Assembly: GCA_036867785.1 (NCBI GenBank)
Contig: CP145423.1
Span: 744,001-808,000 of the forward strand
Direction of reading: 5' to 3'
Length of the DNA stretch: 64,000 nt
DNA from: Plasmodiophora brassicae
Taxonomy: Eukaryota
Both the position numbers and the translations under genes were made by a program. How positions within the stretch are numbered: position 1 is the stretch's first letter; the number at the start of each line of letters is the position of its first letter. Shown one piece after another: positions 42,242-50,574 of this stretch. The notes beneath the pieces were generated by a model, which had not been told where the DNA came from, did not search any database, and was given only the letters and a program-made list of their open reading frames with translations.

Positions 42242-42532
42242 GTGCGCGCGTCCGACTGCGACCGAGGGAGGGGTACGGGGGCCTCAGCGATACAAGCCTG
42301 GCAAGTGGGAACGGCAGGTAGGATCCGGATGTCAGGGCTTGCGTTGGCACGTTCGGTGCCCGTCGTCGTTGTCCCCGACTCCCCGCCGATGACACAGTGC
42401 GCCCGGATCATCTCAGCAGGCCCCCTGCAGCGAGTGTAACGGGCTGATCTCTGTCGGGCAACTTTAGCGCACGCGCCACAAGGGACGCTATGTCGTGTAT
42501 TGGACGACGGGGGCCCGGTGGACCCGGCGTTC

Positions 42533-43327
42533 TTAGGCGGCGATGGCGACGACGACGACGGCAGCGATGGCGCTGACGGCGACACGGGACGACACGGCGG
42601 CGTTACTGTCGTCGTCGCCGGCGGCGACGTCGTCGAGGTCCGCCTGGGCCTTCTCGAACGCCTGGTCCAGCTGGGCCTTGACGTCGGCGTACGTCGCGAC
42701 GCGCTTGGCGACGTCGTCATACTCGGACTTCAGGGCCTTCTTCTTGGCGTCGACGATCTGGGACACCAGGGCGCGGCGCTGCTCCGTCGTCTGCTGCTTG
42801 GCGCCCGCGTCGGTATCCTTAGGCTCCGTCGTCTGCTGCTTGGCGCCCGCGTCGGTACCCTTGAGCACCTTCTCCACCTCGGTGCGGGCCTCGCCGACGA
42901 GGCCGGTGGCGAACGTCTGGAACTCGACCACGTCTGGGTCATCGACCAGCTCGGCGAGCTTCTTCTGCGCGTCGTCCAGGGCCGCCTGCAGCGTCTGCTT
43001 GGCGTCGCCTTCCTGGACATCCTTGACGATCTCGTCGTACTTCTTCGACAGGTCTGCACGGCCCTTCTGCACGATCGGGGTCGCCTCGTCGCGACGTCGC
43101 GCCCAGGCGGCCTTGTCCGCGGTGTCCTTGATCTCGGCCAACGCCACGGCGCCCCTCGTTAACACGACGATGCGATCGTTGGCGAAATCTTGGAACCTCT
43201 GCAGCAGGTCCTGGTCGGTCGGCTTCGGCTTGGCCGTTTTGTCGCCGCTCTCTGCGCCTTTCGTCGCAGCCGCCAGCTGGACGGCCAGGGACGCGACGGC
43301 AATCAGGATGACCTTGCGGGTGTACAT
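42533..43327 (-). CDS. Predicted GPI-anchored alpha-helical surface protein, type A copy 1 (264 aa)
   Basis: Signal peptide MYTRKVILIAVASLAVQLAAA, Ala/Lys/Asp-rich helices, and tail DDDSNAAVSSRVAVSAIAAVVVVAIAA. Intronless. Confidence 0.85.
   Translation of the reverse strand: MYTRKVILIAVASLAVQLAAATKGAESGDKTAKPKPTDQDLLQRFQDFANDRIVVLTRGAVALAEIKDTADKAAWARRRDEATPIVQKGRADLSKKYDEIVKDVQEGDAKQTLQAALDDAQKKLAELVDDPDVVEFQTFATGLVGEARTEVEKVLKGTDAGAKQQTTEPKDTDAGAKQQTTEQRRALVSQIVDAKKKALKSEYDDVAKRVATYADVKAQLDQAFEKAQADLDDVAAGDDDSNAAVSSRVAVSAIAAVVVVAIAA
42781..42864. repeat. 2 x 42-bp in-frame tandem duplication
   Basis: GCTCCGTCGTCTGCTGCTTGGCGCCCGCGTCGGTA.CCTT occurs twice and encodes TDAGAKQQTTE twice. It is absent from the 250-aa copy. 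Confidence 0.92.
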
Positions 43328-43364
43328 TGGGCGGCGGTGGGCGAAGGTGACGTTAGTTGATCCG

Positions 43365-43566
43365 TTCTAGTGCAGGGCGTTCAGGCTTGCGATATGGCGA
43401 ATAGATATGGATATGGCGGGCAGACAGGCGGGTCGGGCCTTCCGACCATGCCCGCCAGACCGATCGGTCGATCGATCCACGTTCGACATTCGGTCGGTCT
43501 GGTTCCGGCCCTGACCTGCCGGCCGGATGTCACGCCATGGCCTCGACGTGACTCACGCCGCCGCCA
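43365..43566 (-). promoter_or_regulatory. Conserved ~200-bp upstream module (copy 1 of 4; others at 44532-44724, 48081-48273, 49239-49440)
   Basis: Shared blocks TTCTAGTGC, CAGGCTTGCGATA, GGCGAATAGATATGGATATGG, TCGGGCCTTCCGACCATG, TTCCGGCCCTGACC and CCTCGACGTGACTCACGCCGCCGCCA lie just upstream of each surface-protein ATG. Confidence 0.75.
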
Positions 43567-48036: not shown

Positions 48037-49477
48037 GGTGGTTAATAGGTGCAGGTCGGCGGGGGGACGACGTGGATTGGTTCTAGTGCGGGACGATCAG
48101 GCTTGCGATACGGCGAATAGATATGGATATGGGGGGCGCAGGCTGATCGGGCCTTCCGACCATGGCCGCCAGATCGTGGGATCGATCCACGTCGACAGCC
48201 GGTCGGACTAGTTCCGGCCCTGACCGGCCGGCTGACACGCCACCCGCCCTCGACGTGACTCACGCCGCCGCCACACACCCACTCGTGGACGGGCCCACAG
48301 GTCGGCATCGATCGAATTAATTCGCCCGCGCATGACTCACGAGGCATGGCGCGCGACGACGCTGGCCGGTCAGCACCGCAGAGGAACGGCAGTAGGCGGT
48401 TCGACTGATCCGGGTCGATCGATCGCCCGGGCGGGCGCTGGTTTGGCTGACGTCTCTGCGGTCGCGCCTGGCGCGTCTGCGTGTCTCCGGCAGCCGGCTC
48501 CTGTCGAACGGTGACGTCGTCGTGGAGAACCCCGGTTCCGCTGGACGCTGTACCGGATGCACAAATGGGTACGCCGTCGCCCCGCCTCGATGCATCTGTA
48601 TCCCCTGCAACGCCGGCGGGGAGAGGGGGCGGTGTGCACCTGATACGCCCTCTGATACCTGGTATCACACCCGGGTGTTGTGATCACCAGTCGACCAGAC
48701 GGCGCTTCGCTCTGGAAGCGATAGCACTCCTCTACTCGCAAAGATCGATTCTCTGCGAACATGGACGCTGACGAGACGGAGCAACAGCCGTCCGGCAGCG
48801 ACTCTAACCGTCGTCGGGAGCGCGGACGACCACTGCGATGTTGGCCGGCGTCCACATTGCGATTGCTGTGTCTGCTAGCAGGTCCATTCGGATACGAGGA
48901 TGCAGATGATGTCGCCAATGCCGCAATGGCCACGTTGGGTTCGTGTCACCGGTCCGGATCAGGCGACAGGTTGGGCACACCCCCTCCCCCACTCCTCCTC
49001 ATCCGGGGACGCCTACGTTCACAAGAACTGCTACCAAGGCGTCCTCGGTTGAATTGACAGAAGGCGGTGTTCTGCTCGTCTACAAAGGATCAGCGGGTTG
49101 CATCAGCGCTACATGGCGGGGTGCACCGTGTGCACCTGGTCGTCCTCTGATTGCCGCGCTGGGGGGCACATGCACCCTGCTTACCCGATACTTCGGGCTG
49201 GCCGTGCCTTGTGCAGCAAGCGTCGGGGCAGTAATCATTGGCGGCGGCGTGAGTCACGTCGAGGCCATGGCGTGACATCCGGCCGGCAGGTCAGGGCCGG
49301 AACCAGACCGACCGAATGTCGAACGTGGATCGATCGACCGATCGGTCTGGCGGGCATGGTCGGAAGGCCCGACCCGCCTGTCTGCCCGCCATATCCATAT
49401 CTATTCGCCATATCGCAAGCCTGAACGCCCTGCACTAGAACGGATCAACTAACGTCACCTTCGCCCACCGCCGCCCA

Positions 49478-50230
49478 ATGTACACCCGCAAGGTCATCCT
49501 GATTGCCGTCGCGTCCCTGGCCGTCCAGCTGGCGGCTGCGACGAAAGGCGCAGAGAGCGGCGACAAAACGGCCAAGCCGAAGCCGACCGACCAGGACCTG
49601 CTGCAGAGGTTCCAAGATTTCGCCAACGATCGCATCGTCGTGTTAACGAGGGGCGCCGTGGCGTTGGCCGAGATCAAGGACACCGCGGACAAGGCCGCCT
49701 GGGCGCGACGTCGCGACGAGGCGACCCCGATCGTGCAGAAGGGCCGTGCAGACCTGTCGAAGAAGTACGACGAGATCGTCAAGGATGTCCAGGAAGGCGA
49801 GGCCAAGCAGACGCTGCAGACGGCCCTGGACGACGCGCAGAAGAAGCTCGCCGAGCTGGTCGATGACCCAGACGTGGTCGAGTTCCAGACGTTCGCCACC
49901 GGCCTCGTCGGCGAGGCCCGCACCGAGGTGGAGAATGTGCTCAAGGGTACCGAGGCGGGTGCCAAGCAGCTGACGAAGCAGCAGCGTAGCGCCCTGGTGT
50001 CCCCGATCATCCTCGCCAAGAAGGGCGACCTGAAGGCCAAGTATGACGCCGTCGCAAAGGTCGTCGAGACGTACGCCGACGTCAAGGCCCAGCTGGACCA
50101 GGCGTTCGAGAAGGCCCAGGCGGACCTCGACGACGTCGCCGCCGGCGACGACGACAGTAACGCCGCCGTGTCGTCCCGTGTCGCCGTCAGCGCCATCGCT
50201 GCCGTCGTCGTCGTCGCCATCGCCGCCTAA
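49478..50230 (+). CDS. Predicted GPI-anchored surface protein, type A copy 2 (250 aa)
   Basis: Identical to the 264-aa copy for the first ~107 residues, divergent in the middle, and identical again in the C-terminal ~47 residues. Confidence 0.85.
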   Translation: MYTRKVILIAVASLAVQLAAATKGAESGDKTAKPKPTDQDLLQRFQDFANDRIVVLTRGAVALAEIKDTADKAAWARRRDEATPIVQKGRADLSKKYDEIVKDVQEGEAKQTLQTALDDAQKKLAELVDDPDVVEFQTFATGLVGEARTEVENVLKGTEAGAKQLTKQQRSALVSPIILAKKGDLKAKYDAVAKVVETYADVKAQLDQAFEKAQADLDDVAAGDDDSNAAVSSRVAVSAIAAVVVVAIAA

Positions 50231-50574
50231 GAGCGCCGGGTCCACGTGGGCCTCGTCGTCCAATACACGACATAGCGTCCCTTCTGACGCGTGCGCTAAA
50301 GTTGCCCGACAGAGATCGGCCTGTTACACCCAAGTCAGACGGGACCCGTTCGGCCCGCCGCATGCGCTCGTGGAGGGCTCCTTTACGACTACTGCTTGCT
50401 TGTCGCTGTAATTTGTCCTCCTGATCATCCGGTGTCTGTTGCTCTATAGCTCGAGTCCTACCCAGGCGGCGTCATTGCTAACCTCACCTGAACTAAGCGT
50501 CCCACGTTCGCACAGGTTGCTCGCACGCTGCAATACAATAAATAGGCGTGTCGCATTGGCACGGTTCGCCCTTG

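What the first reader, a model, noticed from the sequence alone, without database searches (positions are those of the whole stretch)
42434..50329. 7.9-kb palindrome holding a four-gene cassette of GPI-anchored surface proteins
Seen: two ~3.9-kb inverted arms surround a 52-bp spacer (46377-46428), giving the gene order <-A1 B1-> <-B2 A2->. All four genes are intronless with a signal peptide and a GPI-like tail, inside otherwise single-copy, intron-rich housekeeping DNA. Established: long palindromes are recombinogenic and can be maintained by arm-to-arm gene conversion, and GPI-anchored helical multigene families form variable surface coats in several parasitic protists. Inference: this may be an undescribed surface-antigen locus that uses the palindrome for dosage, homogenisation and diversification. 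No recombinase is visible nearby.
Basis: partly seen in the sequence, partly recalled or inferred. Interest (0 to 1): 0.88.

Follow-up and report, generated by a model that had tools for sequence, protein, structure and literature searches.

The report
Palindrome of four clubroot secreted-protein genes
A real 7.9-kb mirror-image duplication in clubroot-parasite DNA carries two pairs of parasite-only genes for secreted, probably lipid-anchored helical proteins, and its arms seem to be kept alike by copying from each other; the family is small, not a large antigen-switching system.

Summary
The palindrome is real at the stated coordinates. The arms are 42434-46376 and 46429-50329, with a 52-nt spacer, and they are 99.18% identical. 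The inner 3372 nt of each arm are identical. All 32 mismatches and a 42-nt indel lie in the outer 571 nt, and 21 of them fall in a 174-nt coding patch of gene A. The gene order <-A1 B1-> <-B2 A2-> is confirmed. All four are single ORFs with a hydrophobic N-terminus and a C-terminal hydrophobic tail.

The organism is Plasmodiophora brassicae. By eye, the four proteins are identical to entries PBTT_09023-09026 of a published annotation, which gives them no BLAST hit. A published secretome study includes them. The family is tiny: 4 hits among 1.84 billion representatives and 7 genes in the published proteome. No Pfam, PDB-sequence or significant fold match was found.

Best reading: a true inverted duplication whose arms are homogenised by gene conversion. 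It carries P. brassicae-specific, all-helical, probably GPI-anchored proteins. A large variant-antigen system is not supported. An assembly artefact is unlikely, because the A copies differ and both flanks are unique, but no reads were available. I found no description of the palindrome in the papers I searched. Interest is moderate.

The parts
42434..46376 (.). Left arm of the palindrome (3943 nt)
   Evidence: pairs with 46429-50329. 32 mismatches and one 42-nt indel, all at or left of 43004.
46377..46428 (.). Unique 52-nt spacer at the centre of symmetry
   Evidence: With 50 nt of each arm it folds as a hairpin with a 52-nt loop region (dG -69.4 kcal/mol, z -18.4). GC 0.558.
46429..50329 (.). 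Right arm of the palindrome (3901 nt)
42533..43327 (-). Gene A1, 264 aa: signal-peptide-like N-terminus, two three-helix modules, two copies of a 14-aa unit, GPI-like tail
   Evidence: By eye identical to PBTT_09023.
44769..45872 (+). Gene B1, 367 aa: signal-peptide-like N-terminus, three helical modules, GPI-like tail
   Evidence: 43% identical to PBTT_03986. By eye identical to PBTT_09024.
46933..48036 (-). Gene B2, 367 aa, identical to B1
   Evidence: tblastn 100%; 0 mismatches in 1104 nt. By eye identical to PBTT_09025.
49478..50230 (+). Gene A2, 250 aa: variant of A1 (87-88% identical; one copy of the 14-aa unit)
   Evidence: By eye identical to PBTT_09026.
42696..42869 (-). Variable patch of A1 (A1 codons about 153-211), including the 42-nt tandem repeat 42781-42864. 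The counterpart in A2 is about 49936-50067.
   Evidence: 21 of the 32 arm mismatches fall in these 174 nt (12.1%). In the A1 model it maps to a low-confidence loop (158-178) and helix 181-210.
43282..43565 (-). Conserved 5' block of A1 (about -240 to +46 relative to the ATG), inverted copy of the B1 block. It contains a 25-nt motif at 43541-43565.
   Evidence: I3, I5, I7, I9: 84-88%; 78-82 identities per 100 columns.
44533..44814 (+). Conserved 5' block of B1, with the 25-nt motif at 44533-44557. Mirrored in the right arm for B2 (motif 48248-48272) and A2 (motif 49240-49264).
   Evidence: 4 exact matches in the window, one 212-214 nt upstream of each ATG; 0 expected in 100 shuffles.

Best explanation
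This is a genuine chromosomal inverted duplication in Plasmodiophora brassicae. An older head-to-head pair of paralogues, A and B, share a roughly 300-nt promoter, 5' end and signal-peptide block. That pair was duplicated in inverted orientation around a 52-nt spacer, giving <-A1 B1-> <-B2 A2->. Intrachromosomal arm-to-arm gene conversion has since made the inner 3.4 kb of the arms identical. The outermost 3' UTR has drifted to about 9% divergence. A 174-nt patch of gene A carries a different sequence type in each arm, and a third A copy elsewhere on the chromosome shares the A2 type, so the A copies exchange sequence in patches. The genes encode proteins found only in this species. Each has a cleavable signal peptide, two (A) or three (B) three-helix modules with a loop of short tandem repeats, and a C-terminal signal of the kind that is replaced by a GPI anchor. 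They are therefore most likely displayed on the parasite's outer membrane, at the interface with the host cell. The palindrome gives two identical doses of B and two variants of A. Shown here: the structure, the identity pattern, the protein architecture and the family size. Inferred: conversion as the process, GPI anchoring, surface location and any role with the host.
For: Structure. Identity pattern: 0 mismatches in 3372 inner nt. By region: 9 of 99 in the 3' UTR, 0 of 163 in the GPI-tail coding part, 21 of 174 in the patch, 2 of 458 in the rest of A. The probability of an empty inner run under a uniform spread is 1.7e-28. Outside the patch, A1 and A2 have 0 synonymous differences in 202 codons. 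Mosaic, by eye: of the 18 residues at which A1 and A2 differ, PBTT_09045 has the A1 state at the 4 sites N-terminal of the repeat, the A2 state at 13 sites C-terminal of it, and neither state at 1. It also has about 11 private changes. Nested inverted repeat and shared upstream motif. Real genes: B matches PBTT_03986 at E 1e-51 with 43% identity over 93% of its length, and both ends are conserved. A and B align in two registers, which shows internal modules. Ends. All four genes passed SignalP 6 and the DeepTMHMM no-TM filter in a published secretome study. All-helical models: B pLDDT 71.8, A1 63.9. Species-restricted: 4 hits among 1,835,955,588 representatives. The two published sequence clusters hold only PBTT proteins among 4197 secretome proteins of seven pathogens, including Spongospora and Polymyxa. 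Against an artefact: the two A copies differ, each arm joins a different unique flank, and the spacer is unique.
Against: No reads, no second assembly and no population data were available, so neither the physical reality of the palindrome nor ongoing conversion is directly shown. A very recent duplication followed by patch exchange would give the same picture. No trained GPI predictor was run, and I could not check whether the organism has the GPI machinery (one search found nothing in a file that was cut when stored). The published pipeline treated these proteins as soluble secreted proteins. There are no expression or localisation data. The excess of non-synonymous changes (18 of 21 differing codons) is not significant. 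The published BLAST table gives none of the seven family members a hit to earlier P. brassicae protein records. That could mean the earlier annotations missed them, but also that the locus varies between isolates. The models are of moderate confidence, and the published pLDDT for the two A proteins is only about 40.
Confidence: 0.6

Rival explanations
1. Assembly artefact: a fold-back or chimeric long read, or a mis-join between two separate A-B loci, created a palindrome that is not in the chromosome.
For: Perfect identity over 3372 nt per arm with a very short spacer is what fold-back chimeras look like. No reads could be examined. In the published table, the flanking genes match earlier gene models with consecutive numbers (PBRA_008502, 008503, 008505), while nothing is matched for the four genes between them.
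Against: Fold-back artefacts give arms identical to their ends, usually at contig ends. Here the arms end in diverged sequence (9.1% in the last 99 nt, a 12.1% patch and a 42-nt indel) and join different unique flanks that carry different genes. The spacer is unique sequence. The published assembly that lists the same four proteins reports more than 300x coverage from each of HiFi, Nanopore and Illumina (section 5), though that locus was not specifically validated there.
Confidence: 0.08
2. One very recent inverted duplication with no ongoing arm-to-arm conversion. The few differences arose afterwards, by ectopic exchange with the third A copy and by repeat slippage.
For: The inner arms show no differences at all. 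The patch type of A2 is shared with PBTT_09045 (by eye), so one imported tract could explain most of the differences.
Against: The outermost 99 nt of untranslated sequence differ at 9 positions (9.1%), while the adjacent 163 nt have none. A single recent event does not produce that, and at least two separate exchange tracts would be needed. That is already recurrent conversion.
Confidence: 0.2
3. The palindrome works as a hairpin-RNA or small-RNA source. B1 and B2 converge, with 1060 nt between their stop codons. Read-through across the spacer would give a long perfect hairpin that Dicer-like enzymes cut into 21-nt RNAs, and these would regulate the family.
For: Convergent identical genes and a foldable centre. 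[quoted passage not shown]
Against: No small-RNA or transcript data for this locus were available. Intact ORFs with conserved protein ends and paralogues under protein-level constraint show that the genes are kept for their proteins. Nothing shows read-through. Rfam gives no match.
Confidence: 0.12
4. The proteins are soluble secreted effectors, or wall or matrix proteins, and not GPI-anchored surface proteins. On this reading the C-terminal hydrophobic tail is not an anchor signal.
For: A published pipeline kept them as secreted candidates after a transmembrane filter. No GPI predictor or biochemical test was applied here.
Against: All five distinct family sequences compared end in a 16-17-residue hydrophobic run with no residues after it, preceded by small residues (S, N, A, G, D) and a short polar spacer. 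This end is conserved where the middle has diverged to 25-43% identity. Such an end has no obvious use in a soluble protein.
Confidence: 0.25

Closest known systems
Gene-bearing palindromes of mammalian sex chromosomes (human Y P1-P8, primate and mouse X palindromes)
   Same: Two inverted arms more than 99% identical around a unique spacer, with paired protein-coding genes in the arms and identity attributed to arm-to-arm gene conversion (abstracts seen in the listing: PMC8600007, PMC8981503, PMC8327919, 10.1101/800185). Here the arms are 99.18% identical with an identical inner core.
   Different: Those palindromes are described as large (over 10 kb), with longer spacers (the spacer point is recalled), and lie on sex chromosomes with testis-biased genes. 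This one has 3.9-kb arms and a 52-nt spacer, sits among housekeeping genes of a protist, and each arm is itself a partial palindrome. Conversion here is inferred from one sequence, not from comparison between species or isolates.
Babesia bovis variable merozoite surface antigens (MSA-1 and the MSA-2 locus)
   Same: A small family of GPI-anchored surface glycoproteins. The MSA-2 locus has four clustered related genes and polymorphic or repeat-bearing regions (passages of PMC10606690). An Atlas cluster named 'Merozoite surface antigen 2c' was the second-nearest look-alike for both B (0.80) and A1 (0.78).
   Different: No sequence relationship was found. Atlas scores under 0.9 are leads only. The MSA-2 genes are in tandem, not in a palindrome. 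Surface location and host binding are shown for VMSA and are untested here.
Spectrin-type three-helix repeats
   Same: The models are strings of three-helix modules of about 95-120 residues. Spectrin repeats are the top Foldseek hits for B (3kbt_A, E 6.1e-3, prob 0.99), and plectin spectrin repeats rank second for A1 (5j1g_A).
   Different: There were 0 Foldseek matches at E<=0.001 in either search, and TM-scores were only 0.19-0.31. No Pfam spectrin match was found. Spectrins are cytoskeletal, not secreted. I treat this as a shared generic architecture, not homology.
Published P. brassicae records PBTT_09023-09026, PBTT_09045, PBTT_03986 and PBTT_01849
   Same: By eye the first four are letter-for-letter the window's A1, B1, B2 and A2. 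The last two are P0002 and P0005. They form sequence clusters 267 and 238 of a published secretome study.
   Different: Those sources list them without a BLAST description and as secretome members. In the passages, sections and stored supplement text I searched, they do not mention a palindrome, a GPI tail, gene conversion or the shared upstream motif.

Membership tests
Gene-converting genomic palindrome | Two inverted arms with more than 99% identity | tested here: met
   99.18% over 3901 aligned columns, with the inner 3372 nt identical.
Gene-converting genomic palindrome | Unique spacer between the arms | tested here: met
   52 nt at 46377-46428. Far shorter than in the sex-chromosome examples (recalled).
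Gene-converting genomic palindrome | Large arms (over 10 kb in the definitions quoted in the abstracts) | tested here: not met
   Arms are 3943 and 3901 nt.
Gene-converting genomic palindrome | Arm-to-arm conversion shown by concerted change between lineages | not testable with these tools
   Only one sequence was available. The patchy identity pattern and the mosaic third copy (by eye) are indirect evidence.
GPI-anchored protein | N-terminal signal peptide | tested here: met
   Hydrophobic windows begin at residues 4-11 in A1, A2 and B. All four published counterparts are in a SignalP 6-based secretome.
GPI-anchored protein | C-terminal hydrophobic tail that ends the protein, preceded by small residues and a short polar spacer | tested here: met
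   One search prints the last 35 residues and gives hydrophobic windows at 248-254 (A1), 234-240 (A2) and 350-357 (B). The candidate attachment sites were read by eye. The tail is conserved in all five aligned sequences.
GPI-anchored protein | Positive call by a trained predictor, and release by PI-PLC | not testable with these tools
   No GPI predictor is on hand. This is a bench test.
Variant surface-antigen multigene family (VSG, VSP or VMSA type) | Many paralogues that supply variants | tested here: not met
   4 hits among 1.84 billion representatives. 7 genes by motif search of the published proteome table: PDVTEFQ 3, PDVVEFQ 3, IAVASLA 5, and FEKAQ 5 of which 1 is unrelated. That file was cut when stored.
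Variant surface-antigen multigene family (VSG, VSP or VMSA type) | Conserved ends with a variable middle, and mosaic exchange between copies | tested here: inconclusive
   Ends are conserved and the middle has diverged. The mosaic is seen among only three A copies, one of them compared by eye. dN/dS is about 2 but p=0.16-0.20.
Variant surface-antigen multigene family (VSG, VSP or VMSA type) | Sequence or fold homology to a known antigen family | tested here: not met
   Pfam gave 0 families above cut-off. The PDB sequence search gave 0 hits. Foldseek gave 0 at E<=0.001. Atlas scores were 0.78-0.82 only.
Spectrin repeat (PF00435) | Profile match and a three-helix bundle superposable on spectrin repeats | tested here: inconclusive
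   No Pfam match. Spectrin chains are the best Foldseek hits but with E of 6e-3 or worse and TM 0.19-0.26.
Fold-back assembly artefact | Arms identical to their ends, no distinct unique flank on one side, usually at a contig end | tested here: not met
   The outer arm parts have diverged, and different genes flank each side. The palindrome lies 42 kb and 13.7 kb from the window ends. Read support was not testable.

The most novel reading that the evidence does not exclude
The palindrome is the core of a previously overlooked, species-specific coat of GPI-anchored helical proteins on the plasmodiophorid cell surface, which faces the host cytoplasm directly. The short-spacer palindrome would serve two purposes. 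It would act as a conversion engine that keeps B in two identical doses while shuffling a loop-and-helix patch among the A copies. Through convergent read-through of B1 and B2, it would also be a source of 21-nt small RNAs that set which family members are expressed at each life stage.
Probability: 0.1. Interest if true: 0.8.

Novelty: new member of a known kind. Interest (0 to 1): 0.45.

Why it matters
Clubroot is a major disease of brassica crops, and little is known about what the parasite displays on its own surface inside the host cell. Published effector screens for this species either discard predicted GPI proteins (passages in PMC4815078 and PMC8595600) or do not test for them (PMC12503489; the word 'GPI' occurs 0 times in the main text). 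A family of this class is therefore easily missed or misfiled as soluble effectors. In the published BLAST table, the seven family members also lack any match to earlier P. brassicae protein sets. A perfect inverted repeat with a 52-nt spacer is the kind of structure expected to be fragile and recombinogenic (established knowledge, recalled). The locus is therefore a candidate site of copy-number and sequence variation between isolates, and a compact natural case for studying gene conversion in a rhizarian.

Tried and rejected
- **Pfam on A1, A2 and B.** No family reached its cut-off. A2 gave a weak Mod_r match (26 bits against a cut-off of 30.1), which I rejected as helical or compositional bias.
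- **Rfam and tRNA scan.** Rfam at the gathering threshold gave 0 matches in the window. No tRNA lies in the palindrome.
- **Searches against solved structures.** A PDB sequence search with the family profile gave 0 hits at E<=1. Foldseek against the PDB with both models gave 0 matches at E<=0.001.
- **ESM Atlas.** The best scores were 0.78-0.82, below the 0.9 level. I kept them only as a lead.
- **Other paralogues in the window.** tblastn found none beyond the four genes.
- **Positive selection.** The test was not significant.
- **Third homology search.** The alignment search did not recover P0005, because only the 7999 candidates sharing the most words were scored.
- **Paper search for 'PBTT'.** It returned polymer chemistry papers.
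- **GPI-machinery terms.** A search of the one stored supplement of PMC11191646 gave 0 hits. That file was cut when stored, so this says nothing either way.
  - Complex prediction, because I make no binding claim.
  - The genome-contig scan, because that collection holds only bacteria and archaea.
  - The phage, plasmid and E. coli collections, which are irrelevant to a protist.
- **Left unchecked.**
  - bioRxiv supplements were closed. This includes those of the pangenome preprint, which might bear on presence or absence of the locus between isolates.
  - No eukaryotic genome DNA was available, so other palindromes, the DNA of the three paralogues outside the window, and read support all stayed unchecked.
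  - PBTT_09045 was compared by eye only, because it is not a stored sequence.

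
Full report
**Observation.**

The repeat finder reports inverted arms 42823-46376 and 46429-49982 with 52 nt between them. It also reports outer arms 42434-42820 and 49943-50329 at 92%, offset by 42 nt.

My own alignments give these numbers:
- The left arm is 3943 nt and the right arm 3901 nt.
- There are 32 mismatches over 3901 aligned columns (99.18% identity).
- There are 42 gap columns. They correspond to a second copy of a 42-nt tandem unit in the left arm.
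- The innermost difference is at 43004, so 3372 nt per arm are identical.

The palindrome is the only repeat of 150 nt or more in the window, so chance is excluded.

**Where it comes from.**

- The only named relative of B in the 5.8-billion-protein set is PBTT_03986 of Plasmodiophora brassicae (43% identity, E 1e-51).
- Following that locus tag into the literature, a supplement of the published P. brassicae genome paper lists four proteins, PBTT_09023 to 09026, of 264, 367, 367 and 250 aa. By eye these are identical to A1, B1, B2 and A2.
- The published neighbour PBTT_09022 begins with the same residues as the window ORF 40865-42211(-). PBTT_09027 matches the ORF on the right flank.
- The window is therefore P. 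brassicae DNA, or indistinguishable from it at these genes.
- The surroundings are housekeeping genes whose Pfam domains are split between reading frames, as expected for introns. They include a kinase, Integrator subunit 2, a yippee-type protein, tRNA-splicing endonuclease, a DEAD-box helicase, a family-2 glycosyltransferase and BOP1.
- The first 5 kb of the window hold retrotransposon pol sequence at lower GC.

**Anatomy of the arms.**

The differences are not spread evenly:

| Region (left-arm coordinates) | Length (nt) | Mismatches |
|---|---|---|
| 3' UTR of A, outermost part | 99 | 9 (9.1%) |
| A, C-terminal / GPI-tail coding | 163 | 0 |
| A, variable patch (also holds the 42-nt indel) | 174 | 21 (12.1%) |
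| A, rest of the gene | 458 | 2 (0.4%) |
| A-B intergenic | 1441 | 0 |
| B coding | 1104 | 0 |
| B 3' flank | 504 | 0 |

- Under a uniform spread, an empty inner run has probability 1.7e-28.
- A1 and A2 differ in 21 codons. Of these, 18 are non-synonymous and 3 synonymous.
- Outside the patch there are 2 non-synonymous and 0 synonymous differences in 202 codons.
- The ratio dN/dS is about 2 but is not significant (p=0.16 for the whole gene, 0.20 for the patch).

**Each arm is itself a partial palindrome.**

- A and B are transcribed divergently from a 1441-nt intergenic region.
- Their first 46-60 coding nt and about 240 nt upstream are 78-88% identical in inverted orientation. The middle 950 nt or so do not align.
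- A 25-nt motif occurs exactly four times in the window, 212-214 nt upstream of each ATG. None is expected by chance.
- The mature parts of the A and B proteins are only 25-28% identical.
- The locus therefore records two rounds of inverted duplication. The older one produced the A/B pair and left the regulatory and signal-peptide end conserved. The younger one, or a homogenised one, produced the two arms.

**The proteins.**

- All have a hydrophobic N-terminal stretch and end in a 16-17-residue hydrophobic run with nothing after it. That run is preceded by small residues and a short polar stretch. This is the layout of a GPI attachment signal. No trained predictor was available.
- The published secretome study included all four genes after SignalP 6 and a DeepTMHMM filter. 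This independently supports a signal peptide and the absence of an internal membrane helix.
- Structure prediction gives all-helical models: B with pLDDT 71.8 and 11 helices before the tail, and A1 with pLDDT 63.9.
- In A1 the helices group as 38-64, 72-101, 107-126 and 131-155, 181-210, 214-236. The 14-aa tandem unit lies in a low-confidence loop (158-178).
- A aligns to B and to PBTT_03986 in two or three registers. This shows modules of about 95-120 residues: two in A and three in B.
- The best Foldseek hits are spectrin repeats, but none reaches E<=0.001 and TM-scores are 0.19-0.31.
- Pfam and PDB sequence searches are empty.

**Family size.**

- A profile of the family, run against 1,835,955,588 representatives, found 4 proteins: B, PBTT_03986, A2 (which stands for A) and a 204-aa protein, P0005.
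- Motif searches of the published protein table show that P0005 is PBTT_01849, and that a third A-type gene, PBTT_09045 (250 aa), lies about 19 gene numbers beyond A2. That makes seven genes in all. That file was cut when stored, so seven is a lower bound.
- The two published sequence clusters that hold these genes contain no protein from Spongospora, Polymyxa or the four other pathogens studied.
- All seven have no entry in the BLAST column of the table, while their neighbours match earlier P. brassicae records. The paper says 456 proteins had no hit.
- The flanking genes match earlier models numbered PBRA_008502, 008503 and 008505. The earlier annotation therefore seems to have nothing between them. 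I cannot tell whether the genes were missed, the region was collapsed, or the locus is absent from that strain.

**Exchange between copies.**

- By eye, PBTT_09045 has the A1 residue at the four A1/A2-variable sites N-terminal of the repeat.
- It has the A2 residue at 13 of the 14 variable sites C-terminal of it, and it lacks the extra repeat unit.
- It has about 11 private changes spread along its length.
- A1 and A2, by contrast, are identical outside the patch, at synonymous sites as well.
- In the patch, the distant paralogue P0005 shares more states with A1 than with A2 (alignment, counted by eye). The A2/09045 patch type therefore looks derived and shared.
- This pattern does not fit a simple tree. 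It fits patchwise gene conversion among the three A copies, with stronger homogenisation between the two copies in the palindrome.

**Mechanism.**

I conclude that this is a true inverted duplication kept nearly identical by arm-to-arm conversion. It delivers two doses of B and two variants of A, and the genes encode species-specific, secreted, probably GPI-anchored helical-repeat proteins. Conversion, anchoring and surface location are inferences.

The nearest functional analogy is a small clustered family such as the Babesia bovis VMSA genes (passages in PMC10606690). The Atlas look-alike search pointed weakly to the same family for both A and B (0.78-0.80). That is a lead, not evidence of kinship.

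**Rivals.**

- *Assembly artefact.* This is unlikely, because the arms end in diverged sequence, join different unique flanks and surround a unique spacer. The assembly paper that lists these proteins reports more than 300x coverage from three technologies. Without reads I leave it at 0.08.
- *Single recent duplication.* A single recent duplication without ongoing conversion does not explain 9% divergence in the outermost 99 nt next to 163 identical nt.
- *Hairpin-RNA role.* This is open. B1 and B2 converge with 1060 nt between their stop codons, and the centre folds. The species makes 21-nt small RNAs, and one palindromic region that gives miRNAs is described in a figure legend. No data exist for this locus.
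- *Soluble secretion.* Soluble secretion instead of anchoring remains possible (0.25).

**Novelty.**

I found no mention of this palindrome, of gene conversion, or of a GPI-anchored family in P. brassicae in the following searches:
- 'Plasmodiophora brassicae' with 'GPI' gave 40 papers, of which 15 were listed. In the passages read, GPI appears as a filter in secretome pipelines.
- 'Plasmodiophora' with 'palindrom' gave 48 papers, of which 15 were listed. I opened two. One concerns the mitochondrial genome and the other a miRNA-producing palindromic region.
- Term searches inside the genome paper, the pangenome preprint and the secretome paper.

The genes themselves are public as proteins without a BLAST description. 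Both components are of known kinds: a gene-bearing, conversion-homogenised palindrome, and parasite proteins with a signal peptide and a GPI-type tail. I therefore rate this a new member of a known kind, with moderate interest.

Noticed in passing
window 1419-4803 (+), within the 52%-GC stretch 1-10000: Retrotransposon pol sequence. Reverse transcriptase and RNase H domains lie in 1419-3095, and a weak chromodomain (22.5 bits, below its cut-off) in 3655-4803. GC is about 52% here against 60-72% in the rest of the window.
   Followed up: no
window 43541-43565, 44533-44557, 48248-48272, 49240-49264: A 25-nt motif containing TGAGTCA is present exactly once upstream of each of the four genes, 212-214 nt from the ATG, with none expected by chance. 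It is a candidate shared regulatory element. Whether it also precedes the three family members outside the window could not be checked.
   Followed up: partly
published table rows PBTT_01849, 03986, 09023-09026, 09045 (PMC11191646 supplement): All seven family members carry no BLAST description, while their neighbours match earlier P. brassicae records. The genes flanking the palindrome match consecutively numbered earlier models: PBRA_008502 and 008503 on one side, 008505 on the other. The family seems absent from the earlier annotations.
   Followed up: partly
window 33172-33266 (-): ARAGORN calls a 95-nt tRNA-Asp (GTC), long enough to hold an intron. Rfam at the gathering threshold did not report it. 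A tRNA-splicing endonuclease gene lies at 55579-56547(-).
   Followed up: no
P0002 (PBTT_03986), residues about 330-420: This B-type paralogue carries about five and a half tandem copies of a 14-aa unit just before its GPI-like tail. The A1 repeat unit is also 14 aa but is unrelated in sequence and lies in a loop. Short repeats near the membrane-proximal end may be a family trait.
   Followed up: no
window 42211-42533: The stop codon of A1 (42533) lies only about 320 nt upstream of the start of the Integrator-subunit-2-like gene on the same strand (ORF 40865-42211). The palindrome boundary at 42434 falls in that short gap, so the arm end abuts the neighbour's promoter region.
   Followed up: no
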